From the NCBI GenBank assembly GCA_034670305.1, contig JAXMNT010000020.1, forward strand, positions 32,001 to 96,000: 64,000 bases of DNA, written 5' to 3'. The DNA is from Deltaproteobacteria bacterium. GTDB lineage: Bacteria > Myxococcota_A > Polyangia > Polyangiales > Houyiibacteriaceae. Position 1 is the first letter of the stretch, and each line of letters opens with the position of its first letter. Both the position numbers and the translations under genes were made by a program. The notes beneath the pieces are model-generated. The model saw nothing but the letters and a program-made list of their open reading frames with translations. It was not told the DNA's origin and made no database searches. Positions 48,945 through 63,366 of the stretch are shown here, piece after piece.

Positions 48945-49774
48945 GGCGTGCGCCGTACGTTCAGACGCTGCACGAGCGCGTCGGTCGCGTGTTCGAGGGC
49001 GGCGGCTCGGCGTTCGTCCGCCCACGCTTCAGCGACTTGGCGATGCACCTGCCCGAGTTCCGGGAGCGCGCCCTCGCGCCGTGCGCTCACCCGCACGAGG
49101 TGCTGCCCGAACGCGCTCTCCACCGGCCCGTGCCACCCGTCGAGGGGCGCGGTTCGGATCGCGGCGGCAAACCCCTCACCGAACTGGCGCGCGATCTCGG
49201 GCACCGAGCGGTCCGTGACGACGTACCCATGCAGGAACGGGTCGCCGTCTGCTTCGGCGCGCACGGTCTCCGGCGACAAGGTGGCGCGCACGGCTTCTGC
49301 GTCGGCGCGCGGATCGTCTCGCCGCTCGTCGCTGAAGAACACGTGGGTGAACGCCACACGCTCGCGGGTGCGAAAACGTTCCGGATGCGACTGCATGTAG
49401 TGCTGGAGCTGCGCGTCGGTCGGCGCGTCGACCGCAGCGCCGCTTCGGAGCAGGAACTCCATCTTCTGGATGAGCCGCCGGCGCACGATCACATCGTTTC
49501 GGTCGAGGCCGAGCGCGAGCGCTTGCCGGTAGAGCGCTTCGTCGCGCACGAACCGGCGCACCAGCGCCTCTTCGTCCTCCGGCGGCGAGCCGGTGCGCTG
49601 TTCGTGTTCGAGCGCGAGCCCGCGAATGAAGTCGGGCGAGATCTCGAGCGACGTGGTGTCGCCGGGTTCCGCCAGGTACCGGTGGGCCGCGAAGAGCAGC
49701 CCACCCACGAGGAGAAAATGAACGAGCGGCTCGCCCGCGAAGCGCCGAAGCCGCGACTTCGCGCGCTCCCCCAC
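48941..49774 (-). CDS. Parvulin-like peptidylprolyl isomerase family protein
   Basis: EPLVHFLL.G..LF, LGLDRND.IVRRRL.QKM, WHGPVESAFGQHLV. Confidence 0.85.
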   Translation of the reverse strand: MGERAKSRLRRFAGEPLVHFLLVGGLLFAAHRYLAEPGDTTSLEISPDFIRGLALEHEQRTGSPPEDEEALVRRFVRDEALYRQALALGLDRNDVIVRRRLIQKMEFLLRSGAAVDAPTDAQLQHYMQSHPERFRTRERVAFTHVFFSDERRDDPRADAEAVRATLSPETVRAEADGDPFLHGYVVTDRSVPEIARQFGEGFAAAIRTAPLDGWHGPVESAFGQHLVRVSARREGALPELGQVHRQVAEAWADERRAAALEHATDALVQRLNVRRTP

Positions 49775-49775: not shown

Positions 49776-50432
49776 TCAGGTCTCGAGCAACCCGCGGAGG
49801 TTGAAGTCGAGCACGATCAGCGCCGAGCGGTCGACGTCGTCGGCCAGGTGTTCGTCGTCGCTCATGACAAGCTGCTCCATGAACTGCTTGATGGTGCCGA
49901 GGACGCAGAAGGCCGCAATCTCGGTGTCGATGTCGCGCACGATGCCCATCTTCTTGCCGTTCTCCAGCGACTCCCGGATGTAGTCGAGCAACGAGTCGTA
50001 GAAGAGCTTGAGGCGGGCATCGACCTCGGCGTCGAGACCGACGGCCTCGCGCACGAGGATGCGGGTCAGCGCGCGGTTGTCGACGACGGTCCCAAGGATG
50101 CGGCGCACCGTGCCGACGAGCTGCGCTTCGACCGGTGGGGCGCCTTCGTCGGTCTCGACCCCAACGATGTTGGCTTTGAGTTCGTCGAGCAGCGAGTCGA
50201 GCAGCTCGCGAAAGATCGCCGCTTTGGAGTCGAAGTACAGGTAGAAGGTGCCACGCGCGATGCCGCAGGCTTCGATGATGTCGGCGACGTGGGTCTGGTG
50301 GTAGCCCTTGGCAGCGAAGACCCGGCGCGCTTCGTCGAGTACCGCCTTGCGGCGGCTCTTGCGCTTCTGGCTCGCACGTTCGGTCCGTCGGTCGGCCGGG
50401 CCGGTGGTCTCGGGGGAGTCGGCAGCGTTCAT
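49776..50432 (-). CDS. TetR/AcrR-family regulator
   Basis: A..VFAAKGY..T.VADI....GIARGTFYLYF.SK. Confidence 0.93.
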   Translation of the reverse strand: MNAADSPETTGPADRRTERASQKRKSRRKAVLDEARRVFAAKGYHQTHVADIIEACGIARGTFYLYFDSKAAIFRELLDSLLDELKANIVGVETDEGAPPVEAQLVGTVRRILGTVVDNRALTRILVREAVGLDAEVDARLKLFYDSLLDYIRESLENGKKMGIVRDIDTEIAAFCVLGTIKQFMEQLVMSDDEHLADDVDRSALIVLDFNLRGLLET

Positions 50433-50535
50433 CGTACGTCTCGGTTCTGCGTCGCCGCGGAAAGTCGGTTGCCAGCTCTCGGGCACAACGGTCCTGTAGG
50501 GTCGAATCGCCGTGTGGATCTCTGTGGCCGCTCGG

Positions 50536-51465
50536 TCATGCCACCACCTCCAGCGCGCCCGGAAGCACCTCGAGGGCATGCAGCGTGAGCTTCTGGATCT
50601 CGCCATCCAACATGACGAGCCGTTCGCGTGGCTGCAGAAACTCGACCCGCTTCGCACGCCGTTCGTCGACCTGCCCGTCTTCGACGTGGCGGCCTTCGTA
50701 GCAACGGATCAGGTTCTTCACGAAACGCGGACGGTTCATCGTGCGTGCGCGCACGATGTCCACCAGCCCGTCGCCGGGATCGGCGTGTGGTGCGATGTGG
50801 AACTTGCCGCCGGTGAACTGGCTGTTGCCGAAACACGTAAACGACGCGGCGTGGTCGTCCCAGAGTTCGCCATCGACACGCATCGGGTCGCGTTCGTGCC
50901 GCAGGCGGGCGACGCCGATCATCGCGGCCAGCAAGTAGCCGGCTTCGCCGAGTGGTTTGAATCGGCGGTTGGTGAGGTCGCCCGCGTTGGTGACGAAGCC
51001 CACGGTGAGCAAGTTGATGAAGTGCAGGATGCCGCCCGCGTGTTCGACCCGAATGACGTCGATGCTTCGGGTGCGGCCGCGGGCCAGCGACGCGACGGCG
51101 TCGGCCTCGTTCTCGATGCCGAAGTCCCGCAGAAACGAGTTGCCGGTGCCGAGCGGCAGCATGCCGAGCGTGACGGGGTCGTCTGGGTGTTCGAGGACCA
51201 GCGGAAACAGACCGTTGATGATCTCGTAGGTCGTGCCGTCTCCGCCCACCGCCAGGATGTGACGTTCGCCGCGCTCGTACGCTTCACGAGCCAGCTCGCT
51301 CGCGTGCCCGGCGTGCTGGGTCACGACCACGTCGATGAACAGGCCCTTGGCCCGCAACGCGTCGAGCGCTTCGGTCGCGCGTTTGCTGCAGCGCCCGCCC
51401 CCGGCCGCGCCGTTGACGATCGCGAGGAACCCCGGACCGGAGAGCGTCTGGTGCACACCGCTCAC
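50536..51465 (-). CDS. Diacylglycerol/lipid kinase family protein
   Basis: IVNGAAGGG, VGGDGT, LPLGTGNSF, GG...IAP.A...DG; GTGA overlap. Confidence 0.9.
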   Translation of the reverse strand: MSGVHQTLSGPGFLAIVNGAAGGGRCSKRATEALDALRAKGLFIDVVVTQHAGHASELAREAYERGERHILAVGGDGTTYEIINGLFPLVLEHPDDPVTLGMLPLGTGNSFLRDFGIENEADAVASLARGRTRSIDVIRVEHAGGILHFINLLTVGFVTNAGDLTNRRFKPLGEAGYLLAAMIGVARLRHERDPMRVDGELWDDHAASFTCFGNSQFTGGKFHIAPHADPGDGLVDIVRARTMNRPRFVKNLIRCYEGRHVEDGQVDERRAKRVEFLQPRERLVMLDGEIQKLTLHALEVLPGALEVVA

Positions 51466-53189
51466 GTCGAGAGGCTCCGCAACTTCGAGCGGTCGGCGCC
51501 GTCGCGCAGCTGTTCGGCGAGCACGTTGCGTTTCACCTTCATGGACGCAGTGCGCGGAAACTCGTCGGTCCACTCGAGCATGGCGCCAACCCGCTTGAAG
51601 TCCGGCAGGCTCTGGTTGCGTCGGCGCAGGTCATCGAGCGCACCTGCCGGGAGCTGGGTGCCTTCTTTGGGTCGAACGATCGCGACGAGTTCTTCGCCCG
51701 TGAGCGCCGCGCCGTCTTTCGTCTTCGATTTTGGCCAGACGAACCCGGACGCGAACACGACGAGTTCTTCGCAATCGAGTCCGTCGAACACGCCCTCGAT
51801 GTCTTCGGGGTGAATGTTCTTTCCACCCGCGGTCACGATCATGTTCTTCGAGCGGCCGACCAGGTGCAGCTGCCCGCTCGGATCGAGGTAACCGCGGTCG
51901 CCGGTGCGCAGCCATCCGTCCTGAAGCACCTCGGCGGTGAGCTCGGGTTCGTCGAGGTAGCCGGCGAACACCGTGCGGCTCTTGACCCACACTTCGCCCA
52001 CACCGTCCGACGCATCGCGGATCTCGATCTCCACGCCTTCGAGCGGCTTGCCGACCGAGTCGGGCCGGAACGGTTTCATGTCGTTCACGGTGAGCACAGT
52101 GCACGCTTCGGTCAGGCCGTACCCGATCACGACCGGCACGCCGATGTCGTAGAAGAGCTGCGCGCGCGCCTTGTCGACGAACGCGCCGCCACAGAAGAGC
52201 ATCTTCAGCTCCGGCCCGATCTTGTCGTGGATGGGTTTGAGCAGCCGGCGGCTCATCCAGCGGCGGGGTTTGCTGAGCGTGAGCGACGCGTTGAGCTGCT
52301 TGATGCCTTCGAAGAGGTGCTGGGTGACCTCGCTCTTCTCTTCGAGCTGCTCGGTGATGCGGCGTTCGAACGCTTCCAGCAGAAGCGGCACCACGGACAT
52401 GTGGGTGATGCCGCGGGTCTGCATGACCCAGCGCACGAACTCCGGACGGAGCGACCGCTGATGCACGACCGTCGCGCCGCAAGCGAACGGGCCGAGGAAG
52501 CCGCACATGAAGTCGATGGCGTGGTTGGTGGGCAGCACCGAGAAGTAGCGGTCGCCGACTTCGAACGGGTACAGCTCGATGAGCGTGCGGTACTGCTCGA
52601 GGTAGTTGTCGTGGGTGAGCAGGCAACCCTTCGGCGCGCCGCCGGTGCCCGAGCTGTAGACCAAGGTCGCGTGGTCGCTGCGTTCGCGTTGCACGAACGT
52701 GCCTCGGCCCTCCGGGAGATCTTCGTAGCGCACGTGCTTCGCAGGCAGCTCGATCTTCTCTGGGACCTCCGAGACGATCACGAGTCCGATCTCGGCTTCG
52801 GGCTGCAGCGCCTCCGGGAGGTCGCGCCACTCGGGGTACTCGGTCACCAGCACGCGCGGCCGGCAATGGCGCAGGAGCACCGCTTGTTCTTCGCCGCTGA
52901 GCTTGAAGTCGATCGGCACGAGCACGGCGCCGCGGTAGAGCGCGGCGTACGCAGCGATGAGCCACTTCGACTGGTTGCTCATCACGATCGCGACCCGTTC
53001 GCCCGCGCCCACGTCCGCGTCTTCGAGACGCCGCGCAAGCCGCTCGCCGCGGATCATCACCTCGAGGTAGGTGAGCGTTTCGCTCTCGCGCTTGCGATCG
53101 CATTCGATCAGGGCGGTCTGCGTCTTGTACTGGAGGAAAGAGTCTCGAAGGAGCTCTCCCAGGCAGCGGTATCGTTCGGGCGGAATCAC
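51462..53189 (-). CDS. AMP-binding long-chain acyl ligase
   Basis: YSSGTGGAPKG, GYGLTE, WLRTGD, GRSKNMIV. Confidence 0.92.
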   Translation of the reverse strand: MIPPERYRCLGELLRDSFLQYKTQTALIECDRKRESETLTYLEVMIRGERLARRLEDADVGAGERVAIVMSNQSKWLIAAYAALYRGAVLVPIDFKLSGEEQAVLLRHCRPRVLVTEYPEWRDLPEALQPEAEIGLVIVSEVPEKIELPAKHVRYEDLPEGRGTFVQRERSDHATLVYSSGTGGAPKGCLLTHDNYLEQYRTLIELYPFEVGDRYFSVLPTNHAIDFMCGFLGPFACGATVVHQRSLRPEFVRWVMQTRGITHMSVVPLLLEAFERRITEQLEEKSEVTQHLFEGIKQLNASLTLSKPRRWMSRRLLKPIHDKIGPELKMLFCGGAFVDKARAQLFYDIGVPVVIGYGLTEACTVLTVNDMKPFRPDSVGKPLEGVEIEIRDASDGVGEVWVKSRTVFAGYLDEPELTAEVLQDGWLRTGDRGYLDPSGQLHLVGRSKNMIVTAGGKNIHPEDIEGVFDGLDCEELVVFASGFVWPKSKTKDGAALTGEELVAIVRPKEGTQLPAGALDDLRRRNQSLPDFKRVGAMLEWTDEFPRTASMKVKRNVLAEQLRDGADRSKLRSLST

Positions 53190-53227
53190 GGTGAGTCTTC
53201 AGGTCTTGGTGACGATCAGGAGGTCGT

Positions 53228-53467
53228 TCAGAGCCGGGTCTCGATGACGTCGGCGAGTTTGTCGAAGGTGGTGACGCCCTGGAGTTCGTAGTCGGGGATC
53301 TCGACGTCGAGCGCGTCTTCGAGATCCGTCATGAGCTCCATCGCCTGGTACGAGTCGATGCCGAGCGTCTGGAAGAAGTCGTCGCCGGCCTTCATCTCGC
53401 TCGCCGGCTTTCCAAATCGTTTGGAGGCGAGTTCGATCAGCTTCTGGATCAGGTCGTCACGGCTCAT
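53228..53467 (-). CDS. Acyl carrier protein
   Basis: 79 aa, acidic, LGIDSY. Confidence 0.9.
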   Translation of the reverse strand: MSRDDLIQKLIELASKRFGKPASEMKAGDDFFQTLGIDSYQAMELMTDLEDALDVEIPDYELQGVTTFDKLADVIETRL

Positions 53468-53522
53468 GGCGGGTTCTCATCGAGTTCGGATTCGTTGCGG
53501 GTTCGGGCTCAGGTGGTGAGAT

Positions 53523-54590
53523 TCAGGGGAGGTAGGGTCGGACGTCGTCCGATTCCACGAACTTGCGAAGCGCGGCCGCCACGACGGGGCTGGCGATCAT
53601 CTCGAGGAAGAGATCCTTCTCTCGGGCGAGCTCTGCGCGCGGCAACGGTTTGCTGAACGCTTTGGCCCGCGCGGTGGTCTCGGGATCGAAGCGCGCGGCT
53701 TGTTCGGCGACCTTGCGCGCGACGCCGAGCGCTTTGCCCCGGCCGACGAGCTGGCTGACGAGCCCGACTTCATGCGCGCGTTTCGCGGAGATGCTCCGGC
53801 CCGTGAGAAGCACGTCTCGGACAACCGCATTGCCGACGTCGCGGCGCAGGCGCGGGATGCCGCCGAAGCCGGGCACGAGCCCGAGGCGCAACTCCGGGAA
53901 CGCGAACCGGGTGCTCTTGTCGGCGACGATCACATCGCAGGTGAGCGCGAGCTCGAACCCGCCGCCAAAGACGAACCCGTGGGTCGCCGCGATGGTGGTG
54001 ATGGGCGCCATGTCGAAGGTGTCGAAGACCGCGTGGATGCGATCGATGAACCCGCGGACCTCGTGCGCCGTGCGAAGTCGTCCGAGCAGCCCGCCTTCGT
54101 CGGCGCGGGCCAAGAGGCCCTCGTGCAGCTCGCGCAGATCGGCGCCGGCGCAGAAGCCGCGGTCAACCGACGAGTAGAAGATCAACGCGCGCGCCCCAAC
54201 CGCGCCAGCGCGCACCAGCGTGGCGAGCAGTTCGAGTTCCGCGAGCGCGGTCGTGCCGATCTCGTTGCAGGGCGTCCGGCAGAGATCGACCTCGAGCGCG
54301 TCGCCCCGCAGCGACCACCGCATCGCGCGGCCGATGAAGTCGGTCGGCGGCACGTCGAGCCGCACCGCGGGACGCGGCGCGCCGTCGAGAAGCGCACCAG
54401 CGAAGGGCGCCAGGTCACGCACGAGACGCGTCGCACGTTTGGCCACGCCGGTGCGCAGCAGCCGGGCTTGCCACGCGCCGAGACGCGTCGAGAGCGGCAC
54501 CACATTCGGTGTGGCCGGTCCAGCGACGGTGCGCTCGGGTGCGGCGGTGGCGGATGTGCCGACGCCGTTCTGGGTGACGTGCTCCGTCAC
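53523..54590 (-). CDS. Enoyl-CoA hydratase/isomerase family protein with N-terminal extension
   Basis: FCAGADL, GGGFELAL.CD, FPELRLGLVPG.GG; GTGA overlap. Confidence 0.88.
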   Translation of the reverse strand: MTEHVTQNGVGTSATAAPERTVAGPATPNVVPLSTRLGAWQARLLRTGVAKRATRLVRDLAPFAGALLDGAPRPAVRLDVPPTDFIGRAMRWSLRGDALEVDLCRTPCNEIGTTALAELELLATLVRAGAVGARALIFYSSVDRGFCAGADLRELHEGLLARADEGGLLGRLRTAHEVRGFIDRIHAVFDTFDMAPITTIAATHGFVFGGGFELALTCDVIVADKSTRFAFPELRLGLVPGFGGIPRLRRDVGNAVVRDVLLTGRSISAKRAHEVGLVSQLVGRGKALGVARKVAEQAARFDPETTARAKAFSKPLPRAELAREKDLFLEMIASPVVAAALRKFVESDDVRPYLP

Positions 54591-56422
54591 GCGCGCGCCT
54601 CGGCGGACGCCTTCGGCGCGTCGCTGCTGGTGCCGGCGTTGCGTTTGGCCCGCACCCGCTCGACGAGTGCGACGACCGCAGGTGCCAGGGAAGGCAGGTG
54701 TTGCCACGGGTCGCCCGCGGTTCCATCGGCGAGGGTTTCGCCGAGCTCGGGTCGGAACGGAAACTCCGGGTGATGCCGGCGCACGTAGTCGACGAGGATC
54801 ATGCCCATCTCGCCCATGCGCTCGAGGTTCTGGTAGACGCAGTCGTCGATCCCAGCGCGAATCACGTCGCGCTCCGACGTGAGGCGCACCAGCACGTCGT
54901 AGAGGTGCTGCTCGAGTTCTGGATCGTCGGTCTGGAGCGCGAGGCCCGGCGTGCCGCGATCGATCATCAAGTTCTGGATGCGCTCGTCCATCGTGACGCC
55001 GGCCGAGATGACCCCGCCGGCCATGGTCATCACGCACGCGTGGTAGCGGCTCGAGACCATGAAGGTCGACTGGCGCATGGCGCTGACCATCGCGTACATG
55101 TCGTGGTCGTCGCTCACGATGATCGGGAACCCGTTCTCGCGAACCGCTTCGGGCAACTTCTCCCAGGCGGGTGTGCCTTCCAGGCGCTCGATCAACTTCT
55201 CGTTGAGCGCTTCGGCCGCGAACCGGTCGAGCTGCTCGCTGCCGAAGAGGCACGGAAGCACCTGATGAGTCTCGAGCAGCCGCGTGGTCGCTCCGGCGAA
55301 AGCGTCCAGGTACCGGTCCTGGGCGTCGGTGACGTCGGTGCCTTCTTCATGGAAGTACACGCTGCCGTAGTGGCTGTCGTCGTAGAGCCCGCTGAACGAG
55401 TTCATCGCGGCGCGGGTGACGTTCGGCTTCACCGGCCACCAGAACGGGTTGATCGGACAGAGCGCGAGGATCTCCATCTCTCCATCCCAGCCCGCGTCCA
55501 TGAGGATGCGGCGGCCAACTTCCGGGTCGGCCGGATCGAAGGTCCACGCGGTGTCGGTGCCCGAACGCGACGCGACGCCGAGTTTGCCGAGCACACCCTT
55601 GCTGGCTTCGTTCCGCGCGATGATGAGGGCGTCCTGGCAGTAGCGGCGCACGAGGTCGGCGAGCGAGTCGTCCATCTTGCCGGCTTCGCCGCCGTAGCCG
55701 ACCGCGAGTTTGCCCTCGGCGGCTGCAAGGCCGATCGCGCCGACCATCATGGTGCTCAGCGCGTTGGCGAACTTGCTCTTGAACATCGATCCCTCACACG
55801 CGATGACCGCGTGCGCTTCGTGGATCGTGTCGAAGAGGAAGCGCGGGAACACCTTCGGCATGTGGAGCTGCCGAACGGTGCGGAAGTACCCGCGGGTGAG
55901 CTCCGGATCGAGCGTGTAGATCGAGAGCTCGACGTGGTCGTCGCCGAAGAGGTGGCGGAACTGCCGAATCATCTCTTCGACCCGCACATCGGCCCCGGTG
56001 TTCCGCGTGCCGCTGTAGCCCGCGAGCAGAAGTCGAAGCGGTTCGCCCGGTGCCCATTGCGCGCCGGGATCGAGCGCGTAGCGGCTCGCCGCCAGCTCGA
56101 TGAACCCGCTCATGGCGACCATCAACGCGCGGTCCGCGTCGAAGTAGCCCTTCACCTTCTCTTTGCCGGCTTCGAAGATGTCCTTGAACACGCCGCGCAG
56201 CTTCTCGGCGTCGCGTGCTTCGGCCTTCTCTCCAAGATCCTCGACGAAGGTCTTCATCTCCGCCCAGGTCTTCGGCAGCACGTCCGAAGGCTTCTCGGAG
56301 CCGTTCGCATCCGACTGGGCCATCGCGGCCGCCGGGGTCTCCACGGGATCCTTCTTCGGGCGCCAGACCTTGACGCGACGTTTGTCGCGCGGGGTGAACT
56401 GCGGTTTGGACTTTCGTTTCAC
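54587..56422 (-). CDS. Polysaccharide pyruvyl transferase family protein
   Basis: LLAGYSG.RNTGAD, ARNEAS, TDTAW, VSSRYHA; GTGA overlap. Confidence 0.72.
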   Translation of the reverse strand: MKRKSKPQFTPRDKRRVKVWRPKKDPVETPAAAMAQSDANGSEKPSDVLPKTWAEMKTFVEDLGEKAEARDAEKLRGVFKDIFEAGKEKVKGYFDADRALMVAMSGFIELAASRYALDPGAQWAPGEPLRLLLAGYSGTRNTGADVRVEEMIRQFRHLFGDDHVELSIYTLDPELTRGYFRTVRQLHMPKVFPRFLFDTIHEAHAVIACEGSMFKSKFANALSTMMVGAIGLAAAEGKLAVGYGGEAGKMDDSLADLVRRYCQDALIIARNEASKGVLGKLGVASRSGTDTAWTFDPADPEVGRRILMDAGWDGEMEILALCPINPFWWPVKPNVTRAAMNSFSGLYDDSHYGSVYFHEEGTDVTDAQDRYLDAFAGATTRLLETHQVLPCLFGSEQLDRFAAEALNEKLIERLEGTPAWEKLPEAVRENGFPIIVSDDHDMYAMVSAMRQSTFMVSSRYHACVMTMAGGVISAGVTMDERIQNLMIDRGTPGLALQTDDPELEQHLYDVLVRLTSERDVIRAGIDDCVYQNLERMGEMGMILVDYVRRHHPEFPFRPELGETLADGTAGDPWQHLPSLAPAVVALVERVRAKRNAGTSSDAPKASAEARA

Positions 56423-57573
56423 GCGTGCACTCCGCGAACGGGCACGCTCACGGGCCGGGCGGGCAGCGCTTCGTAGGGGAAGCGGTACTGGTGTCCGCGG
56501 CACCACTCGGCGAACTCGGGGCCGTAGTCGAGGAAACTCGCCGGGGCTTCGTTGATCTCGTCCACCGCGCGGTCGTTCACGAAGACCGTGTCGAACGTGA
56601 TGTAGGGGAGGAAGACTTTGAAGAGCGACCCGATGAAGGTGAGCGTGTTCTTCTGGGGCAGCCCCGCGATGAGATCGAACGCCATCTTCGTCGCGCCATG
56701 CAGCTGCGGGACCATCTTCGGCGGCCGGCGACCGAGCGTCGCCATGGCCTGCCCGAGCGCGTAGGCGCGCGGCGAACCGACGCCGGCTGCGAGGTGGTAG
56801 ATGTCGTGGGCGGGATCCGCCTTGCGGTGGATCTCGAAGATCGCTTTGCCGACCCAGTCCGCGTTCACGATGTCGACGCGGGCGTCCGGATGGATGGGGA
56901 ACACCGGGAGCTGAAACACGGTGTTGAACGCGCGCACCATCTCGAACTGGGTGCTGCGCGGATGGCGCGAGTCGCCCATCACGGTGCTCGGCCGGTAGAT
57001 GGTGGTGCGCACGTCGGGGAGCAGCTCCGCGATCATGTGTTCGCAGAACTTCTTGGTCCGCGCGTAGGGATCGTAGTCGGAGAGATCCCAGTCGAGCACT
57101 TCGTCTTCGACGAGCGTCGCGCCCTGGCGCTGTCCAGCGATCGCGGTGGTGCTCACGAACCCGAACCGGCGCAGCCCATGGTCCTCTTGGGCGAGGCGCG
57201 CGAGTTTGCACATCGCGAGCGTGCCCTTGAGGTTGTGGTTGAGACACGCCTTGCTGCTCTTGCGGTTGAGCGACGCGGCGATGTGCAGGATCGACTCACT
57301 CTCGCGCCAGACCTTCTCGTAGTCCGTCTCGCTCATGCCGAGCTTCGGCGAGGAGAGATCGCCGGAGACGATGTCGACGCGATCGACGAGCTGCCAGAAG
57401 GTGTTCGCGTCCTGGTGGACTTGAAGCGCGTTCCACAGCTTCTCGATGCCCTGCTCGCGGTTCGCGGCGCGGGTGAGTACCGAGATGCGCGCATCGGTCT
57501 CGCGCAGGTAGTGGTCGAGCACGTAGGAGCCGAGAAACCCCGTCGCTCCGGTGATGAAGATGCGTTCGCTCAT
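56419..57573 (-). CDS. Extended SDR (thioester-reductase-like)
   Basis: ITGATGFLG, ILHIAA, FVSTTA, YARTK, IYRPS.V.GD. Confidence 0.88.
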   Translation of the reverse strand: MSERIFITGATGFLGSYVLDHYLRETDARISVLTRAANREQGIEKLWNALQVHQDANTFWQLVDRVDIVSGDLSSPKLGMSETDYEKVWRESESILHIAASLNRKSSKACLNHNLKGTLAMCKLARLAQEDHGLRRFGFVSTTAIAGQRQGATLVEDEVLDWDLSDYDPYARTKKFCEHMIAELLPDVRTTIYRPSTVMGDSRHPRSTQFEMVRAFNTVFQLPVFPIHPDARVDIVNADWVGKAIFEIHRKADPAHDIYHLAAGVGSPRAYALGQAMATLGRRPPKMVPQLHGATKMAFDLIAGLPQKNTLTFIGSLFKVFLPYITFDTVFVNDRAVDEINEAPASFLDYGPEFAEWCRGHQYRFPYEALPARPVSVPVRGVHA

Positions 57574-57628
57574 GACACTTGTTCTCGAAGGGGAAAAAGG
57601 CCGACCGAGATCGGCGGTTTCGAATCGT

Positions 57629-59398
57629 TCAGCCTGCGACCGCGACGCGTTCGCCATCGGCGCCCACGTCTTCGGGTCGCACGATCGGCACTTCGCCGGT
57701 GCGCTGGCGGAGGTCCGGCTCGCTCGTCGGACGCGGAAGCGGCTCGTCGTCGGGGACCTTCTCACCGCGGAGCAGCGGAAGACTCCACAGGTCGAGTCCC
57801 GGCACCTGGATGTTGACCCAGTAGTGGCGCCAGCAGATCGCCGGTACATCGAACCCGAAGAGCACGCGCTCTTCGTCGCTCAGACGTTCGTCTTCTTCCG
57901 CGAGATGATCGGTGAGGAAGGTGTAGTTCAGGTCCCAGATGAAGGGGCGGTACTGCCGAAGCATCTCGTCGACCTGACCAAGTTTCCGATCAGCGGTCCG
58001 GCACTTCATGGAGAAGCTGCGGAGATCCGCGTCGACGCGCTCACCGTCGATGCGGTCGTAGAGTTTGGGCGAGAGGTTCTTGGACAGGTCGAACTCGCGC
58101 AAGAACGAGCGGGTGGCGCGTGCGACCAAGCGCATCCGGCGGAAGCCGAGCACTTGTTCCCGGTCCACGTCTTCGACGCAGTGCGAGTCGAGTCGCGCGA
58201 GCACATTGCGCTCCCAGCTGTCTTCGCTCTTGCGGTGGATGCGGCGAAGCGCGATGCCGCTCATGTCGACCGCACGCTCGTAGGTGAACGGGTTCATGTG
58301 GCTCGAGGCACACTGGTAGACGGGCCGCGCCGAGTCGGTGAGCGCGGCGGCCACCACCACCATCATCGCGCGCGAGACGGTGTCGACCGGCACGATGTCG
58401 AAGTGGTTCGAGGCCTTCGCCGGGAAGCGCTGAAAGCTCGTGCCCAGCAGCCAGATGATCGGCCCCGACGTGTTGATGCCTTCGTTCCACCCGACGAAGG
58501 GGTAGTTCTGGGCGCACTCCACGATGGCCGGGCGGAAGGTGGTCGTGACGACGTCTTCGCGGCCTTCGAGCAAGTGCTCGGAGAGGCCCTTCGTGTAGGT
58601 GTAGATGTTGGGCCAGCCGAGCGCTTGCCCGCGCGCCATGGCGAAGTCCACCCGGTCCGACTTCTTGTCGAGGCCGACGAGTCCGGCTTCGAGGGCCGCG
58701 AGTTCCTCTTCGGGATCGAACACGACGCCGGTGGGCCCGACGCCGACTTCGATCGACTCCGGGATCTCGTCGTTGCGCAGCCCGGCGACGAAGGTCGTCG
58801 ACACGTGTACGTAGCGGCCCGAGGGCGAGAGCGCCGCAAGATCGGCCGCGTGGCGTGCGCCGTGAATGTTCGCGTCGATGGCGTGGCGCGGATCCGGCTC
58901 GAAGTCGGTGAGCCCGGCGAAGTGCACCACCGCGTCCACGTCCTTCATGAGCTCGGCGGCCGCGTCCGGGTCGAGACCGCAGAGCGGCTCCACCAGTCGG
59001 GCGTCGAGCACGTCGACCTTCTCCGCCATGATCGTCCACAGCTCGGAGCCGTACTTGGCGCGGAGCGGTCGCAGGGCCGGGGAGCTCTCGACGATCCAGT
59101 CGAAGCGGGCGCGGGCGTCTTCGCCCTTCTTGCCACGCACGACGACGGTCAGGCGCCCCACGTCCTCGACATGGTCGAGCAACATGGTCATCCAGACCTT
59201 GCCGAGGAAACCGGTCACGCCGGTCACCAGCAGATGTTTGCCGCGGTAGGCATCGCGAATCTCGAGCGCACCTCGCTCGTCCGCGGAGACCACGATTCCG
59301 GCATGTGCGCCGTTCTTCGCGCCGTTGCGCCGGATCCCGCTCTTCTGCATGCCGTTTTTCTTCACGCCGTTGCCATTCGTTCCCATCGATCCACTCAC
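57629..59398 (-). CDS. Fatty acyl-CoA/ACP reductase (FAR, male-sterility type)
   Basis: TGVTGFLGKV, HVSTTFV, GWPNIYTYTK, RPAIVE, GWNEG, FDV..ICW..Y; GTGA overlap (alternative ATG 59386). Confidence 0.9.
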   Translation of the reverse strand: MSGSMGTNGNGVKKNGMQKSGIRRNGAKNGAHAGIVVSADERGALEIRDAYRGKHLLVTGVTGFLGKVWMTMLLDHVEDVGRLTVVVRGKKGEDARARFDWIVESSPALRPLRAKYGSELWTIMAEKVDVLDARLVEPLCGLDPDAAAELMKDVDAVVHFAGLTDFEPDPRHAIDANIHGARHAADLAALSPSGRYVHVSTTFVAGLRNDEIPESIEVGVGPTGVVFDPEEELAALEAGLVGLDKKSDRVDFAMARGQALGWPNIYTYTKGLSEHLLEGREDVVTTTFRPAIVECAQNYPFVGWNEGINTSGPIIWLLGTSFQRFPAKASNHFDIVPVDTVSRAMMVVVAAALTDSARPVYQCASSHMNPFTYERAVDMSGIALRRIHRKSEDSWERNVLARLDSHCVEDVDREQVLGFRRMRLVARATRSFLREFDLSKNLSPKLYDRIDGERVDADLRSFSMKCRTADRKLGQVDEMLRQYRPFIWDLNYTFLTDHLAEEDERLSDEERVLFGFDVPAICWRHYWVNIQVPGLDLWSLPLLRGEKVPDDEPLPRPTSEPDLRQRTGEVPIVRPEDVGADGERVAVAG

Positions 59399-60057
59399 TT
59401 CTCGACCACCGGCCAGTCGTGATCCTTCGCGAGCCGGCGCAACGTGCGATCCGGGTTCACCGCGCAAGGTTGTCCAATCGCGCTCAAGAGAAGACTGTCC
59501 GCGCCACACGCGCCGTACGCCCAGGAGGCGCCAAGATCGATGCCGTGTTCGGACGCAAAGCTGCGCGCCCATTGACCGGCGATGTTCCCACCGATGACCG
59601 GATCCTCGAGCCGGCCGGTGGCCTTGCTCTTCCGCATCTCCAGCTGGTTGCAGATGAGGTCGTCCGCGCCGAGCAGCTCCGCCAGCGGTCCGACGATGAG
59701 TTCGATGTTGTCGCTGATGAGCACGATGCGGCGGTTCTGCTTGCGGGCTTGCTTCACGAGCTCCTTGCCCACGTCGAGCACGTCGTCCTTCAGGTACTTC
59801 TCGAAGTACTCCTCGCCGAGCAGCGTCAGCCGGTCTTCGCTCATGCCCCGCACACCCATCCAGGTCAGGCGGGTGCCACTGGCACCGGATTGCAGCCCAA
59901 GCATCGAAAAGGGTGCCGCGAGCGCGACGTTGCCGAGCCGGGCGACCCGTTCCCCGAGCCCTTGGGCGTTGGAGGCGAGCCACGCGGCCGCCGCGAGGGT
60001 CGACCGTTCGATCAGGGTGCCTTCGACTCGAAAGAAGGCGGCGGTTGGATTGCTCAT
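59395..60057 (-). CDS. HAD-IB family protein with degenerate catalytic motifs
   Basis: AAFFRVEGTL (normally FFDxDGTL), LGAD....N.L, DL..SWAYGACGAD, AVNPD..L. Confidence 0.85.
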   Translation of the reverse strand: MSNPTAAFFRVEGTLIERSTLAAAAWLASNAQGLGERVARLGNVALAAPFSMLGLQSGASGTRLTWMGVRGMSEDRLTLLGEEYFEKYLKDDVLDVGKELVKQARKQNRRIVLISDNIELIVGPLAELLGADDLICNQLEMRKSKATGRLEDPVIGGNIAGQWARSFASEHGIDLGASWAYGACGADSLLLSAIGQPCAVNPDRTLRRLAKDHDWPVVEK

Positions 60058-60141
60058 GATGCTGAAAACACTCGGGCGAAGGGGACCTCGATCGCCTGCC
60101 TCACCGGAGCGCAGGACACATCGAGCATCGATCGCGACACG

Positions 60142-60216
60142 ACTAGACTGACGTGTCAGTTTTTCGGGGGCCCGAGGAACCCGGCGTTTGTAGCTCAACT
60201 AGACTGACGTGTCAGT
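60142..60216. promoter_or_regulatory. Two identical 19-bp boxes ACTAGACTGACGTGTCAGT with 6-2-6 palindrome; candidate TetR operators
   Basis: Exact copies at 60142-60160 and 60198-60216 upstream of the lipid operon. Confidence 0.8.
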
Positions 60217-60268
60217 GAACTTGTCGCCGAACCGTGAGAGAGGCCTCACACGACGGCAAAAAACGCAA

Positions 60269-60287
60269 CCATATCGTCACGATATGG
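60269..60287. promoter_or_regulatory. 9-1-9 palindrome CCATATCGT-C-ACGATATGG
   Basis: Perfect AT-rich dyad upstream of the lipid operon. Confidence 0.55.
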
Positions 60288-60369
60288 CGATTGGGTGCCC
60301 GGGATCAGGCGGCTTTTGGTCCGCCGACCGTGAACGGGCTTCACGATCCACCAGCCTGCGTTCGGGCAT

Positions 60370-60951
60370 CTACGACTGAACGATCCGGTCGCGCAGCACC
60401 GGACCGGTGACCACACCCACCACCAGCCCCACCGACACGCCCTTGAGCAGCTCCAGCGCGAAGACCGCAAACGAGAACGGGCCCCAGATCAGTTGGGAGA
60501 GCAGTGCGCTGACGAGCAAGCCGCTCGACCAAGCGAGTGCGTTCCAAAACATCCACGGCAGCCGATCCAGCTTTGGGTTCGCCTGCGCTTGGAAGAGCCC
60601 GACCAGCGCACCCACCACCACCCCGCCGATCGCAGAGCCGCCGAGCATCAGCCCGAGCGTGGGCGGTGCCGCGGGTTCGAAGAAACTCAGGAGCCCGCCG
60701 CCAAGCCACGCGAGCGACAGCCCGGTGCCGGTCGCGACCACCCACCGTTTCGGCGAACCCACCACGCCCGTGGCCTTGGATTGGAAGCCGCCAACGATCG
60801 CGCCTTCCACGAACCCGAGCACCGGCATCAAGGCGACGAGCGCCCAGCCGCCTTCCGGCGCCAACCGGGAGACGAGCATGCCAAGGACGGCCAGCACCCC
60901 GAGTGCCACCCCTTCCCCCAACACACACGCCAGAATCCAACGCCGGATCAC
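60370..60951 (-). CDS. Gly-rich multi-pass membrane protein
   Basis: About 6 hydrophobic segments with G.EGA.VG..Q / W..AT..G repeats. Confidence 0.75.
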   Translation of the reverse strand: MIRRWILACVLGEGVALGVLAVLGMLVSRLAPEGGWALVALMPVLGFVEGAIVGGFQSKATGVVGSPKRWVVATGTGLSLAWLGGGLLSFFEPAAPPTLGLMLGGSAIGGVVVGALVGLFQAQANPKLDRLPWMFWNALAWSSGLLVSALLSQLIWGPFSFAVFALELLKGVSVGLVVGVVTGPVLRDRIVQS

Positions 60952-62285: not shown

Positions 62286-62461
62286 CGCAACCACCGTACC
62301 ATCGCAAAACCCGCGAAAACCGCCGCGACGGCTCTGGCGCACGTGGCGTCACGGACACGGCGCGCGTGGGCGCGCGACCACAGCAGCTGCGGTTGTGGGG
62401 CCACGACGGCCACGACGGCCAAGCGCTGTTGTGGGATACTCGCCGCGTGGACCTCGACGAA

Positions 62462-62587: not shown

Positions 62588-62667
62588 GCGGGCAAGGGCA
62601 AAGGCAAGGGCAGGGGCAAGGGGCAAGCTGCGAGAACGCCCTGCGGGCGTTCTTCAGCAACCTGCTA
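62588..62667 (-). repeat. TAG-anchored element copy 3: IS5-like end, 9-bp hairpin, (TTGCCC)n
   Basis: Minus strand TAG CAGGTTGCTGA AGAACGCCC GCA GGGCGTTCT CGCAGC TTGCCC...; on the lolA stop. Confidence 0.8.
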
Positions 62668-63366
62668 GAGCCGGATGGCGTTGCTGGGCGGGCGGAAGGC
62701 GAAGCGGGCGCTGGGCACGTCGCGGTTGAAGCGCAGGGAGCGGAGCTCCAGCTTGTTGCGGTTGCCGTCGTGGTCGTCGATCCGGATGCGGTGAATCACG
62801 CCGGCCGTGCCCGGGCGGGCGTCGACGTACAGCAGGATCCGCCGCACCTGGGGATCGGAGACGCGGGGAACCAGCTCGAGCACGTGTCCACGCCAGCGGT
62901 AGGTGCGCGCGTTCAGAAGCCGGGTGCGGTAGTCGTCCGCGATGCGGGTGTGTCCGGTGAGAAACGCGAGCCCGCCGACCGTGGCGTTGCCGCCCACGCT
63001 CTGCTTGAGGTACTGGCCGGGCGCTCCGTCTTCGCCCGGTTCGTACGCCGTCAGGTGGCGGCCGTCGCTCACGAAGACCTTGCCGTTCGGTTGGTCGTAG
63101 TCGAAGCGCATGCGGCCCGGCTTGTCGACGACGAGCTGTCCCGCCGATCGCTGATAGCGGTCGTACATGCGGTGGTAGAACGTCTGCGAGAAGCGCGCTT
63201 CGATCGTCTCGGTGCGGTCGTAGAACGCCTGCACCCGGGCCGCCACGGCGTCCGCCGAGAGCGGCTGGGACGCGCTTTGCGCGACGGCATGAGGCGCCGC
63301 CGGAGCGAGCGTGGCGCAGAGCGCGGTGGCCAAAAGAGCGAGCGAGAATCGTCGGGTCTTGGTCAT
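62665..63366 (-). CDS. lolA: Outer-membrane lipoprotein carrier LolA family
   Basis: Signal peptide; ARFSQ, KPGRMRFDY..P, VSDG, F.F.PP. Confidence 0.88.
   Translation of the reverse strand: MTKTRRFSLALLATALCATLAPAAPHAVAQSASQPLSADAVAARVQAFYDRTETIEARFSQTFYHRMYDRYQRSAGQLVVDKPGRMRFDYDQPNGKVFVSDGRHLTAYEPGEDGAPGQYLKQSVGGNATVGGLAFLTGHTRIADDYRTRLLNARTYRWRGHVLELVPRVSDPQVRRILLYVDARPGTAGVIHRIRIDDHDGNRNKLELRSLRFNRDVPSARFAFRPPSNAIRL

What the first reader, a model, noticed from the sequence alone, without database searches (positions are those of the whole stretch)
49776..60287. Lipid operon resembling a split, re-equipped ElbD ether-lipid pathway
Seen: a same-strand run, mostly coupled by GTGA overlaps, of HAD-like protein, FAR, thioester-reductase-like SDR, pyruvyl-transferase-family protein, enoyl-CoA hydratase, free ACP, acyl-AMP ligase and DAG-kinase-family protein, followed by TetR. 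Known (recalled): Myxococcus xanthus ElbD fuses FAR, acyl-CoA synthetase, ACP and acyltransferase domains and has HAD and SDR neighbours. Here the first three are separate genes, no PlsC-type acyltransferase is present, and a crotonase, a lipid kinase and a pyruvyl-transferase-like enzyme appear instead. Inference: an ACP-dependent route to an uncharacterised fatty-alcohol/ether/head-group-modified lipid.
Basis: partly seen in the sequence, partly recalled or inferred. Interest (0 to 1): 0.85.

Follow-up and report, generated by a model that had tools for sequence, protein, structure and literature searches.

The report
Split elb-like lipid operon with pyruvyltransferase
This is a real, repressor-controlled nine-gene operon, kept in the same order in many soil and marine bacteria, that looks like a taken-apart and re-equipped version of the myxobacterial ether-lipid machinery and may build ether lipids by a route nobody has described.

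Summary
The nine genes are real and lie on the minus strand at 49776-60057. In order they are HAD-like, FAR, thioester-reductase SDR, pyruvyltransferase-like GT-B protein (PvT), crotonase, ACP, acyl-AMP ligase, YegS-type lipid kinase and TetR.

The eight biosynthetic genes recur together in 49 of 92 related loci, colinear in 48, in Myxococcota and Acidobacteriota. The HAD-like protein, FAR and ligase are this genome's best matches to ElbB and to the FAR and ACS domains of ElbD. The genome has no fused ElbD and no ElbC.

- Most relatives carry a PlsC-type acyltransferase after the kinase, and many carry a second ligase; this window has lost both.
- The HAD-like protein lacks the catalytic Asp in 0 of 76 orthologues (ElbB has it). 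In Acidobacteriota it is fused to FAR.
- The SDR is not ElbE-like.

New here: a palindromic operator found only upstream of this operon, and a tetraether-synthase homologue next to the cluster in some Acidobacteriota.

The product is unknown. My favoured mechanism (about 0.3) is PEP-dependent enolpyruvyl ether formation on a fatty alcohol, followed by conversion of that unit into glycerol. I found no paper describing this operon.

The parts
60268..60288 (-). Terminator-like hairpin (9-pair stem, then a T-run) that ends the upstream membrane-protein gene and marks the upstream edge of the operon's control region
   Evidence: Consensus scan. A pattern match only.
60203..60216 (.). Operator-like palindrome ACTGAC-NN-GTCAGT, distal copy, about 146 nt upstream of the HAD-like start
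   Evidence: 2 matches in the window; 0 of 100 shuffles reach 2; these are the only two exact matches in the 7.9-Mb genome; present within 300 bp upstream of the HAD-like gene in 23 of 26 related loci that also hold the TetR gene.
60147..60160 (.). Operator-like palindrome ACTGAC-NN-GTCAGT, proximal copy, about 90 nt upstream of the HAD-like start
59395..60057 (-). HAD-IB-like protein (220 aa), ElbB homologue without the catalytic Asp (motif I FFRVEGTL). Probably a non-catalytic partner of FAR.
   Evidence: Pfam HAD 68.8 bits. 39-40% identical to ElbB and its best hit in this genome. 0 of 76 orthologues have DxD. Fused to FAR in 38 loci.
57629..59386 (-). Fatty acyl reductase (585 aa; alternative GTG start at 59398 would give a GTGA overlap). 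Homologue of the ElbD N-terminal FAR domain.
   Evidence: NAD_binding_4 145.6 bits and a weak Sterile match. It is the only hit of ElbD-FAR in this genome, 32% identity, E 9e-67. GxxGxxG and YxxxK motifs are visible in the translation.
56419..57573 (-). Thioester-reductase-type SDR (384 aa)
   Evidence: NAD_binding_4 138.6 bits. TIGR01746 121 bits, and matches to the NRPS terminal reductase of MxcG, 87 bits. Not ElbE-like.
54587..56323 (-). Pyruvyltransferase-family GT-B protein, 'PvT' (578 aa; alternative GTG start at 56422)
   Evidence: PF04230 22.3 bits here; 43 of 43 orthologues match it at E<=0.01, best 1e-9. CsaB model E 5e-14. AlphaFold2 model, pLDDT 86, has a GT-B fold. Invariant S425-R426-x-H428. 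The nearest Atlas clusters are named pyruvyl transferase.
53523..54590 (-). Crotonase-fold enoyl-thioester hydratase (355 aa, with an N-terminal extension of about 90 aa)
   Evidence: ECH_1 112.9 bits. GGGFELA and FPELRLG align with the two glutamate motifs of solved hydratases.
53228..53467 (-). Free acyl carrier protein (79 aa, GIDS motif)
   Evidence: PP-binding 48.1 bits; translation.
51462..53189 (-). Acyl-AMP/acyl-ACP ligase (575 aa), homologue of the ElbD ACS domain
   Evidence: AMP-binding 223.8 bits. Best hit of ElbD-ACS in this genome, 228 bits against 185 for the next.
50536..51465 (-). YegS/DgkB-type soluble lipid kinase (309 aa, GGDGT motif)
   Evidence: TIGR00147 156.4 bits, above its 118.65 cut-off. 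DAGK_cat and YegS_C.
49776..50432 (-). TetR-family regulator (218 aa) with weak likeness to Bacillus-type FadR. Probable repressor acting at the two palindromes.
   Evidence: TetR_N 62.1 bits. FadR model 61.7 bits, below its cut-off. Co-occurs with the palindrome.

Best explanation
SHOWN. This is one transcription unit of nine minus-strand genes. It is preceded by two copies of a palindrome that occurs nowhere else in the genome, and its last gene is a TetR regulator. The biosynthetic genes are a conserved module shared by Myxococcota and Acidobacteriota. Three of them (HAD-like, FAR, ligase) are the genome's counterparts of ElbB and of the FAR and ACS domains of ElbD. INFERRED, about 0.6. The operon makes a fatty-alcohol-derived, ether-type glycerolipid precursor and stands in for the fused ElbD system, which this genome lacks. 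FAVOURED MECHANISM, inferred, about 0.3. (1) The ligase and ACP, or the cell's own acyl thioesters, feed FAR, which works with the catalytically dead HAD-like partner and makes a fatty alcohol. (2) PvT transfers the enolpyruvyl unit of PEP to that alcohol, giving a 2-alkoxyacrylate; this is the step that forms the ether bond. (3) A ligase loads this acid onto ACP or CoA. (4) The crotonase adds water across the C=C bond, giving 2-O-alkyl-glyceroyl thioester. (5) The thioester-reductase SDR reduces it to 2-O-alkylglycerol. (6) Because this backbone carries no phosphate, the YegS-type kinase phosphorylates it. In relatives a PlsC-type acyltransferase then acylates the product. TetR keeps the operon off until a lipid ligand, perhaps an acyl-CoA, binds.
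For: Operon and regulation: gene models, junctions, palindromes, and the palindrome upstream of the HAD-like gene in 23 of 26 loci that also hold TetR. In two loci where the cluster is broken up (L036, L042), the palindrome sits in front of the separate pieces. Conservation: PvT matches in 29 of 41 relatives' genomes; at least 563 loci in species genomes; all eight core genes in 49 of 92 loci, colinear in 48. Elb relation. The genome has no fused ElbD and no ElbC. In a sample of 151 genomes of the phylum, 13 have the split-type FAR and more than 40 have ElbD-size frames; only G105 has both. Logic of the PEP route: every conserved enzyme gets a role. Two ligases and two thioester reductases share one ACP. 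There is a hydratase with both glutamates. A lipid kinase is only needed if the backbone is not made from glycerol phosphate. PvT is a true member of the PEP-using pyruvyltransferase family. One natural protein fuses an adenylation domain, an ACP and a PvT. Link to ether and membrane-spanning lipids: a tetraether-synthase (Tes) homologue (323 bits) lies directly upstream on the same strand in six Terriglobales loci. All 9 of 9 PvT-positive genomes in a sample of 201 Acidobacteriota have a Tes-like gene, against 115 of 201 overall. A FabH gene is inserted in eight Blastocatellia loci. Enolpyruvyl ethers made from PEP are established chemistry (MurA and EPSP synthase; recalled, not tested here).
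Against: There is no experimental or expression evidence of any kind. All characterised pyruvyltransferases act on sugars (recalled), and the window's own protein scores below Pfam's cut-off. The proposed route gives a 2-O-alkyl glycerol, whereas the ether lipids described from myxobacteria and Acidobacteria are 1-O-alkyl (passages of PMC9131029; otherwise recalled). This window and its nearest relatives lack the second ligase, and the genome has no orthologue (best 28% identity against 44-61% among orthologues). It also lacks the acyltransferase, so one ligase would have to do two jobs or a distant paralogue would have to help. The HAD-like protein has no assigned chemistry. Only 9 of 201 sampled Acidobacteriota carry PvT, so this cannot be the general route to acidobacterial ethers. 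Tes-like genes are common there, so co-occurrence is weak evidence and related genomes are not independent. The complementary distribution with ElbD follows phylogeny and is not independent evidence either.
Confidence: 0.45

Rival explanations
1. An Elb-like ether or fatty-alcohol pathway in which the ether bond is made by some other, still unknown chemistry, as in ElbD. PvT only decorates the finished lipid or its head group with pyruvate (a ketal or enolpyruvyl group). Kinase, crotonase and SDR would serve side reactions.
For: Homology of HAD-like, FAR, ligase, ACP and (in relatives) acyltransferase to ElbB and ElbD. Known pyruvyltransferases decorate finished glycans (recalled).
Against: It gives no role to the strictly co-conserved crotonase, second ligase and second thioester reductase. 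ElbC and an ElbE-type SDR, which accompany ElbD, are missing. No sugar or head-group genes lie in the cluster.
Confidence: 0.2
2. The product is not an ether glycerolipid. One possibility is a long-chain 1,3-diol or hydroxy-alcohol, made by hydration of an enoyl-ACP and reduction by FAR/SDR, which PvT then closes into a pyruvate ketal (a 1,3-diol is what 4,6-pyruvylation of sugars uses) and which is then phosphorylated or acylated. That would be a diol-type anionic lipid.
For: A crotonase with both catalytic glutamates beside an ACP and two reductases. The pyruvyltransferase family forms ketals on 1,3-diols (recalled). One natural A-ACP-PvT fusion hints that PvT works close to carrier-bound intermediates.
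Against: There is no acyl-ACP dehydrogenase to make the enoyl substrate. The lipid kinase and AGPAT point to a glycerol-like acceptor. The relation to Elb and the adjacency to Tes point towards ether and membrane lipids.
Confidence: 0.15
3. A low-abundance specialised or signalling lipid (for example a fatty aldehyde or alcohol derivative released from the cell) rather than a membrane constituent. The TetR gene would act as a typical local switch for a secondary-metabolite cluster.
For: A dedicated TetR with an operator unique to this operon. Patchy distribution: 9 of 201 Acidobacteriota, and 13 of 151 Myxococcota with the split-type FAR. The A-T-R-like logic resembles NRPS-like reductive clusters.
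Against: No exporter or tailoring genes are conserved with the cluster. The kinase and AGPAT are phospholipid-type enzymes. Acidobacteriota copies have no TetR.
Confidence: 0.1
4. No functional unit: unrelated lipid genes that happen to be neighbours.
For: None beyond the lack of direct evidence for co-transcription.
Against: Colinear in 48 of 49 complete loci across two phyla whose PvT sequences are separated by a branch with 100% support. Fusions of neighbouring genes occur. The operator is shared by cluster fragments.
Confidence: 0.02

Closest known systems
Myxococcus xanthus elbA-elbE ether-lipid operon (ElbD multidomain enzyme). A canonical elb-type locus was examined here as L105.
   Same: Homologous HAD-like protein (39-40% to ElbB), FAR (32% to ElbD's N-terminal domain) and ligase (32% to the ElbD ACS domain), a phosphopantetheine carrier, and in relatives an AGPAT. 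In this genome these are each other's best matches.
   Different: The domains are separate genes. There is no ElbC (Lar_N) and no ElbE-type epimerase-family SDR. The HAD-like protein has lost the nucleophilic Asp (0 of 76). PvT, crotonase, thioester-reductase SDR, lipid kinase and (in many relatives) a second ligase are added. This window also lacks the acyltransferase.
Polysaccharide pyruvyltransferases (Pfam PF04230: CsaB, WcaK, yeast Pvg1p)
   Same: Sequence-family membership (CsaB model E 5e-14; 43 of 43 orthologues hit PF04230). GT-B fold; Pvg1p aligns at Z 15.7, rmsd 3.6 over 255 residues. Invariant S-R-x-H motif.
   Different: About 480-residue core with extra N- and C-terminal helices. 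It sits in a lipid operon with no glycan genes. The window's protein scores below Pfam's cut-off. Generic glycosyltransferases align at least as well by fold (PimA Z 20.1), so the fold alone does not show PEP use.
MurA/MurB and EPSP synthase (enolpyruvyl transfer from PEP to an alcohol, giving an enol ether)
   Same: A works-like analogy only: formation of an ether bond from PEP, followed by processing of the vinyl group (recalled biochemistry).
   Different: Unrelated folds and families. Here the vinyl group would be hydrated by a crotonase on a thioester, not reduced. Nothing was tested.
FAR1/GNPAT/AGPS route (eukaryotes; MXAN_1676-1674 in M. xanthus)
   Same: It starts from a FAR-made fatty alcohol and ends in an alkyl glycerolipid (passages of PMC9131029).
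   Different: There is no AGPS-type flavoenzyme in the operon and no DHAP acyltransferase in this window. A lipid kinase is not part of that route.
Ger/PlsA ester-to-ether reductases of anaerobes
   Same: The same end (bacterial alkyl ethers, brGDGT-type lipids), as discussed in passages of PMC13159169 and PMC13274423.
   Different: Entirely different enzymes, described in those passages as oxygen-sensitive. None is encoded here.
Carboxylic acid reductases and NRPS-like A-T-R enzymes
   Same: Ligase + carrier + thioester reductase form the same chemical unit. The SDR matches the terminal reductase of MxcG and the carboxylic acid reductase model.
   Different: Three separate proteins, embedded with lipid enzymes.

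Membership tests
elb ether-lipid gene cluster (ElbA-E) | One multidomain ElbD: FAR + ACS + ACP + AGPAT in a single polypeptide | tested here: not met
   FAR, ligase and ACP are separate genes. No ElbD-size frame was found in the genome. L105 shows the fused form for comparison.
elb ether-lipid gene cluster (ElbA-E) | Homologues of the four ElbD domains present in the cluster | tested here: inconclusive
   FAR, ACS and ACP are present and are the best hits. The AGPAT is absent from this window but present in 44 of 49 complete related loci.
elb ether-lipid gene cluster (ElbA-E) | ElbB: HAD phosphohydrolase with an intact DxD motif I | tested here: not met
   A homologue is present (142 bits) but its motif is RVEGT. 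0 of 76 orthologues have DxD; 5 of 5 ElbB have DVDGT.
elb ether-lipid gene cluster (ElbA-E) | ElbC (Lar_N-domain protein) next to ElbD | tested here: not met
   ElbC of L105 is Lar_N, 118.9 bits. It has no tblastn hit in this genome at E<=1e-5.
elb ether-lipid gene cluster (ElbA-E) | ElbE: NAD-dependent epimerase/dehydratase-family SDR | tested here: not met
   The cluster's SDR is of the NAD_binding_4/thioester-reductase type and 24% identical to ElbE. ElbE's best hits in this genome lie on other contigs.
elb ether-lipid gene cluster (ElbA-E) | Ether-lipid production depends on the genes | not testable with these tools
   Needs genetics and lipidomics.
PS_pyruv_trans (PF04230) pyruvyltransferases | Match to the family model above the curated cut-off | tested here: inconclusive
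   The window's protein scores 22.3 bits against a 25.3 cut-off. All 43 of 43 orthologues match at E<=0.01, best 1e-9. CsaB model E 5e-14. In the nearest Atlas clusters 83-96% of members carry PF04230.
PS_pyruv_trans (PF04230) pyruvyltransferases | GT-B-like two-Rossmann fold | tested here: met
   AlphaFold2 model, pLDDT 86, pTM 0.82. GT-B matches at Z 15-20, including Pvg1p at Z 15.7.
PS_pyruv_trans (PF04230) pyruvyltransferases | Conserved Arg-x-His motif near the C-terminal domain, proposed to bind PEP (motif meaning recalled) | tested here: met
   S425, R426 and H428 are invariant in 43 sequences. The role in PEP binding was not tested.
PS_pyruv_trans (PF04230) pyruvyltransferases | Uses PEP as donor and a sugar as acceptor | not testable with these tools
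   Needs an enzyme assay. No glycan genes lie in the neighbourhood.
Crotonase (ECH_1) hydratases | Family match plus both catalytic glutamates | tested here: met
   112.9 bits against a 27 cut-off. GGGFELA and FPELRLG align with the corresponding motifs of solved hydratases. Residue roles are recalled.
YegS/Rv2252/BmrU lipid kinases | Match above the curated cut-off, and a GGDGT motif | tested here: met
   TIGR00147 156.4 bits against a 118.65 cut-off. GGDGT is in the translation.
Thioester reductase domain (TIGR01746) / FAR (NAD_binding_4 + Sterile) | NAD_binding_4 with GxxGxxG and YxxxK; for FAR also a C-terminal Sterile domain | tested here: met
   145.6 and 138.6 bits. Both motifs are in both translations. 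The Sterile domain of FAR scores only 21.4 bits (cut-off 35.4). TIGR01746 scores are below its cut-off.
TetR repressor with local operator | TetR_N HTH domain and a palindromic site in its own operon's promoter | tested here: met
   TetR_N 62.1 bits. The palindrome is unique in the genome and co-conserved with the TetR gene. Binding itself was not tested.

The most novel reading that the evidence does not exclude
The operon builds the glycerol backbone of an ether lipid from phosphoenolpyruvate. A pyruvyltransferase-family enzyme forms the ether bond by enolpyruvyl transfer to a fatty alcohol. A ligase/ACP, a crotonase and a thioester reductase then turn the enolpyruvyl unit into glycerol, giving an ether at C2. 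A lipid kinase supplies the phosphate. This would be an oxygen-tolerant, AGPS- and Ger-independent route to bacterial alkyl ethers. In Acidobacteriota it is sometimes encoded next to a tetraether-synthase homologue.
Probability: 0.28. Interest if true: 0.9.

Novelty: new variant of a known kind. Interest (0 to 1): 0.7.

Why it matters
How aerobic bacteria make alkyl ether bonds is unsettled. ElbD's chemistry is unknown (passages of PMC9131029). Recent work on branched tetraethers still relies on the Ger/PlsA enzymes of anaerobes and leaves steps to a 'yet-unknown enzyme' (passages of PMC13274423). This operon is a compact, widely conserved candidate whose enzymes each suggest a testable step. 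It occurs in at least one cultured myxobacterium (L051). In some Acidobacteriota it lies next to the proposed chain-coupling enzyme. If the PEP route is right, it is a new way of making both an ether bond and a glycerol backbone, and it bears on who produces the ether lipids used as palaeoclimate proxies. If it is wrong, the operon still defines a new elb-related lipid module with a clean regulatory switch (TetR plus a unique operator) that can be used to induce it.

Tried and rejected
1. Is ElbC the counterpart of PvT? No. ElbC of L105 is a Lar_N protein, and PvT gave no tblastn hit in six elb-type loci at E<=1e-4.

2. A link to Caulobacter ceramide phosphoglycerate synthesis (lipid kinase plus an unknown glycerate-adding enzyme). 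In the passages read, CpgC has no conserved domain and CpgA is PgsA-like. No relation to this operon was found.

3. A profile of 43 PvT sequences against PDB sequences: 0 hits at E<=1. Fold searches gave only generic GT-B matches and do not single out pyruvyltransferases.

4. Further genes conserved with the cluster in both phyla: none beyond the core. Only lineage-specific neighbours were found: FabH, a Tes homologue, LolA-like, PAS, and unknowns.

5. A relocated acyltransferase or second ligase in this genome. The best hits are 32% (C24) and 28% (C10) identical, against 45-72% and 44-61% among true orthologues, and no operator copy lies elsewhere. I treat both as lost or replaced.

6. Expression: no RNA holder listed.

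7. Sigma-70-type promoter scan: 0 sites.

8. Literature. No paper held both 'pyruvyl transferase' and 'ether lipid' in a relevant sense (1 irrelevant hit). No paper held 'brGDGT' and 'pyruvyl' (0 hits). No listed paper held 'pyruvyl transferase' together with the reductase, ACP and hydratase terms.

9. Sinninghe Damste et al. 2018 (Org Geochem) is not held. According to a passage of bioRxiv 10.64898/2026.06.23.733905 it reports split elbD homologues in soil Acidobacteria, which may be this same operon. That preprint's supplementary figures could not be read either.

10. Complex prediction, the second structure job, the search of protein representatives and read laying were not used.

Full report
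WHAT IS THERE. GC3 frame analysis and the ORF list show that the real genes between 49776 and 60057 lie on the minus strand. I set the starts by eye and by alignment with relatives. From upstream to downstream the genes are:
- HAD-like, 59395-60057
- FAR, 57629-59386
- thioester-reductase-type SDR, 56419-57573
- pyruvyltransferase-like protein ('PvT'), 54587-56323
- crotonase, 53523-54590
- ACP, 53228-53467
- acyl-AMP ligase, 51462-53189
- YegS-type lipid kinase, 50536-51465
- TetR, 49776-50432

Pfam and NCBIfam support each name. The weak ones are PvT (PF04230 22.3 bits against a 25.3 cut-off, but E 5e-14 to the CsaB model) and the Sterile domain of FAR (21.4 against 35.4). Junctions are tight. 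Two are GTGA overlaps, and two more would be with alternative GTG starts at 59398 and 56422. The rest are gaps of 38-103 nt. 'Mostly GTGA-coupled' is an overstatement.

REGULATION. Upstream of the HAD-like gene there is a terminator-like hairpin at 60288-60268. It is followed by two copies of the palindrome ACTGAC-NN-GTCAGT at 60203-60216 and 60147-60160 (0 of 100 shuffles reach two matches). These are the only two exact copies in the 7.9-Mb genome.

The same palindrome lies within 300 bp upstream of the HAD-like gene in 23 of 26 related loci that also contain the TetR gene. It occurs in 3 of 49 loci without a TetR hit, and those three are Myxococcota loci cut off before the TetR position. In two loci where the cluster is broken up (L036, L042), the palindrome stands in front of the separate pieces. 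I read it as the operator of the operon's own TetR. That protein shows weak likeness to the Bacillus acyl-CoA-sensing FadR (61.7 bits, below its cut-off). Binding was not tested. No sigma-70-type promoter was found.

CONSERVATION. PvT has a match in 29 of 41 genomes of the window's family and order, G000 included. In 13 of the 14 regions I fetched from those genomes, all nine window genes lie in the same order; L019 is partial. The titles of those 80 name Polyangiales, Sandaracinaceae and Nannocystaceae (including the cultured Paraliomyxa miuraensis, L051) and many Acidobacteriota (Terriglobia, Blastocatellia and others).

Over 92 non-duplicate loci, all eight biosynthetic genes are present in 49, and are colinear on one strand in 48 of those. 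Most of the rest are cut by contig ends. A few show PvT alone, or the cluster in two halves. A quick maximum-likelihood tree of 43 PvT sequences splits the Acidobacteriota-type from the Myxococcota-type copies on one branch with 100% SH-aLRT support; the careful search did not finish. The window groups with Polyangiales. The cluster is patchy. PvT was found in 9 of 201 evenly sampled Acidobacteriota genomes. The split-type FAR (E<=1e-90) was found in 13 of 151 sampled Myxococcota.

WHAT THE WINDOW LACKS. In relatives a 289-aa PlsC/AGPAT-type acyltransferase sits between the kinase and TetR (L011:13071-13940; PF01553 60.5 bits; HX4D and FPEGTR motifs). It is present in 44 of 49 complete loci. 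Here only 103 nt separate the two genes. The best acyltransferase hit elsewhere in the genome is 32% identical, against 45-72% among the Myxococcota-type orthologues (31-39% for the Acidobacteriota-type copies).

A second ligase ('LIG2', about 27% identical to the first) lies between PvT and the crotonase in 32 of 49 complete loci. The window and its nearest relatives lack it, and the genome has no orthologue (best 28%, against 44-61% among orthologues). So this copy is a reduced form of a ten-gene biosynthetic module.

RELATION TO ELB. The literature passages I read describe ElbD as FAR + ACS + ACP + AGPAT, ElbB as HAD-like, ElbA and ElbE as NAD-dependent epimerase/dehydratase proteins, and ElbC as unknown (PMC9131029). 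I fetched six elb-type loci from the phylum. In L105:
- ElbD is a 1617-aa frame with exactly those domains
- ElbB is a HAD
- ElbE is Epimerase-family
- ElbC is a Lar_N protein

Searched against this genome, ElbB finds the operon's HAD-like protein first (142 bits against 82). ElbD-FAR finds only the operon's FAR. ElbD-ACS finds the operon's ligase first (228 against 185). ElbC finds nothing. ElbE finds other SDRs. The genome is 96% complete and has no ElbD-size frame. In the sample of 151 genomes, more than 40 have FAR matches inside frames of 1,500 aa or more, 13 have the split type, and one (G105) has both. This pattern is complementary, but it follows phylogeny.

TWO DIFFERENCES FROM ELB THAT MATTER.

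First, the HAD-like protein has lost its nucleophile. Motif I reads FFRVEGTL here. Among 76 cluster-linked orthologues, 68 read RxE, 6 SxD, 1 KxE and 1 RxD, and none reads DxD. All five ElbB proteins read DVDGT. In 38 loci, all of the Acidobacteriota type, the HAD-like part and FAR are one open frame. In 39 Myxococcota-type loci they are separate. It is therefore a conserved, non-phosphatase partner of FAR.

Second, the strictly co-conserved additions are a PEP-family transferase, a hydratase, a second thioester reductase, a second ligase and a lipid kinase.

THE ODD ENZYME. All 43 aligned PvT orthologues match PF04230 (best E 1e-9). The nearest ESM-Atlas clusters are pyruvyl transferase families in which 83-96% of members carry PF04230. 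S425, R426 and H428 are invariant. An AlphaFold2 model (pLDDT 86, pTM 0.82) has a GT-B fold. Generic glycosyltransferases align best (PimA Z 20.1), and yeast pyruvyltransferase Pvg1p aligns at Z 15.7, rmsd 3.6, 255 residues. The fold therefore agrees with the family but does not prove it. One natural protein (P0001: 1348 aa, one sequence on four contigs) fuses an adenylation domain, an ACP and a PvT that is 50% identical to the window's.

The crotonase keeps both glutamate motifs of true hydratases (residue roles recalled).

CONTEXT IN ACIDOBACTERIOTA. No further gene is conserved with the cluster in both phyla. Eight Blastocatellia loci carry a FabH (418 bits) between the crotonase and the ACP. 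Six Terriglobales loci carry a radical-SAM protein directly upstream of the HAD::FAR gene on the same strand. Its best match is tetraether lipid synthase Tes (323 bits over the whole model; cut-off 450).

In the sample of 201 genomes, 115 have such a Tes-like gene (E<=1e-70), and all 9 PvT carriers do. In two of them (G182, G232) the two genes are neighbours. Three of the 201 genomes (G208, G233, G336) are flagged unpublished. They count among the Tes-like positives and the PvT negatives; without them the figures are 112 of 198 and 9 of 198. Related genomes are not independent, and bacterial Tes homologues have no proven function (passage of PMC11868695).

MECHANISM. What is shown is the gene set, its conservation, its kinship with Elb and its regulatory site. 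Everything about chemistry is inference.

I think it most likely (about 0.6) that the module makes a fatty-alcohol-derived, ether-type glycerolipid. Within that, I favour (about 0.3 overall) a route in which:
1. FAR makes the alcohol.
2. PvT transfers the enolpyruvyl group of PEP to it, forming the ether bond.
3. A ligase puts the resulting 2-alkoxyacrylate on ACP or CoA.
4. The crotonase hydrates the C=C bond.
5. The SDR reduces the thioester to give an alkylglycerol.
6. The kinase adds the phosphate that a PEP-derived backbone lacks.
7. In relatives the acyltransferase finishes a phosphatidic-acid analogue.

I wrote this idea down, before reading the scan's earlier notes. It uses every conserved enzyme. 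It explains why there are two ligases and two reductases, and why a biosynthetic lipid operon needs a kinase.

Against it:
- The ether would be at C2, whereas described myxobacterial and acidobacterial ethers are 1-O-alkyl.
- Pyruvyltransferases are known only on sugars.
- This window has one ligase and no acyltransferase.
- Nothing has been measured.

The rivals are listed separately: pyruvate decoration of an otherwise Elb-like product; a diol-ketal lipid; and a specialised signalling lipid.

EARLIER NOTES OF THIS SCAN. Agents who worked on at least seven other genomes met the same operon. They proposed the same elb kinship, the PEP idea and the Tes adjacency. One such report is marked 'part of it fell', without detail. 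These are not independent evidence. I re-derived the synteny, the HAD::FAR fusion, the Tes adjacency and the presence in a cultured myxobacterium from my own calls. New in this window are the Myxococcota form with TetR and its operator, the loss of the acyltransferase and second ligase, the missing HAD nucleophile, and the A-ACP-PvT fusion.

NOVELTY. My searches found no paper that describes this operon or links a pyruvyltransferase to ether lipids. A preprint passage says split elbD homologues were reported in soil Acidobacteria in 2018. I could not read that paper or the preprint's supplements. The split itself may therefore already be noted in print, even if the added enzymes are not. I rate this a new variant of a known kind, with a bolder reading still open.

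Noticed in passing
window 26918-28663 (+): A 581-aa protein with a clear lipoxygenase domain (PF00305, 158.9 bits). Bacterial lipoxygenases are uncommon. It is another lipid-modifying enzyme in the same window, about 21 kb from the operon.
   Followed up: no
window 62665-63387 (-), 61146-62342 (-), 60370-60951 (-): Upstream neighbours on the same strand: a LolA-like protein (70.9 bits), a 398-aa protein with no family, and a 193-aa membrane protein with no family. LolA-like and membrane-protein homologues recur upstream of the operon in several Polyangiales loci (8 and 4 loci respectively). A terminator-like hairpin separates them from the operon.
   Followed up: partly
window 48941-49774 (-) and 47826-49025 (-): A PpiC-type rotamase-like gene starts 1 nt after the TetR stop and is followed by a HupE/UreJ-family membrane protein. 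Both follow TetR in only two related loci (L012, L013), so they are probably neighbours and not parts of the operon.
   Followed up: partly
L083, L086, L088 (3097-5328), L089, L095, L096; also G232:C119: A tetraether-synthase (Tes) homologue (NF045702, about 320 bits, below the 450 cut-off) lies directly upstream of, and co-directional with, the HAD::FAR gene of this operon in one Terriglobales lineage.
   Followed up: partly
L062, L063 (13626-14798), L066, L068, L069, L078, L098, L104: A FabH-type KAS III (PRK09352, 418 bits) is inserted between the crotonase and the ACP in Blastocatellia copies of the operon.
   Followed up: no
protein P0001 (1348 aa; no window coordinates): A natural fusion of an adenylation domain (with a PilZ domain inserted), an ACP and a PvT 50% identical to the window's. 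A c-di-GMP-binding PilZ domain inside an adenylating enzyme is odd in itself.
   Followed up: partly
G000:C2:209977-213198 (own genome, outside the window): A PlsB-like 1073-aa acyltransferase frame carries long Glu-Ala/Asp-Ala dipeptide repeats at its N-terminus and near its C-terminal third.
   Followed up: no
G000:C79:13205-14566 (own genome, outside the window): The genome's best Tes-like radical-SAM frame (197 + 60 bits, far below the cut-off). Its function is unclear and it is not linked to the operon.
   Followed up: no
L058, L061, L074, L093, L102: MAGs labelled Acidimicrobiia, Clostridia, Verrucomicrobiia, Heliomicrobium and Planctomycetota carry acidobacterial-type copies. Three of them (L058, L074, L102) fall inside the acidobacterial PvT clade of the tree. 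This reflects either mis-binning or transfer.
   Followed up: no
L053, L076, L079, L085 (Nannocystaceae-type loci); L036, L047, L067, L081: In some Myxococcota the cluster is split. HAD-FAR-SDR-PvT are kept together, with LIG2 and the rest several kb away or elsewhere. In other loci PvT stands alone within a 16-19 kb stretch.
   Followed up: partly
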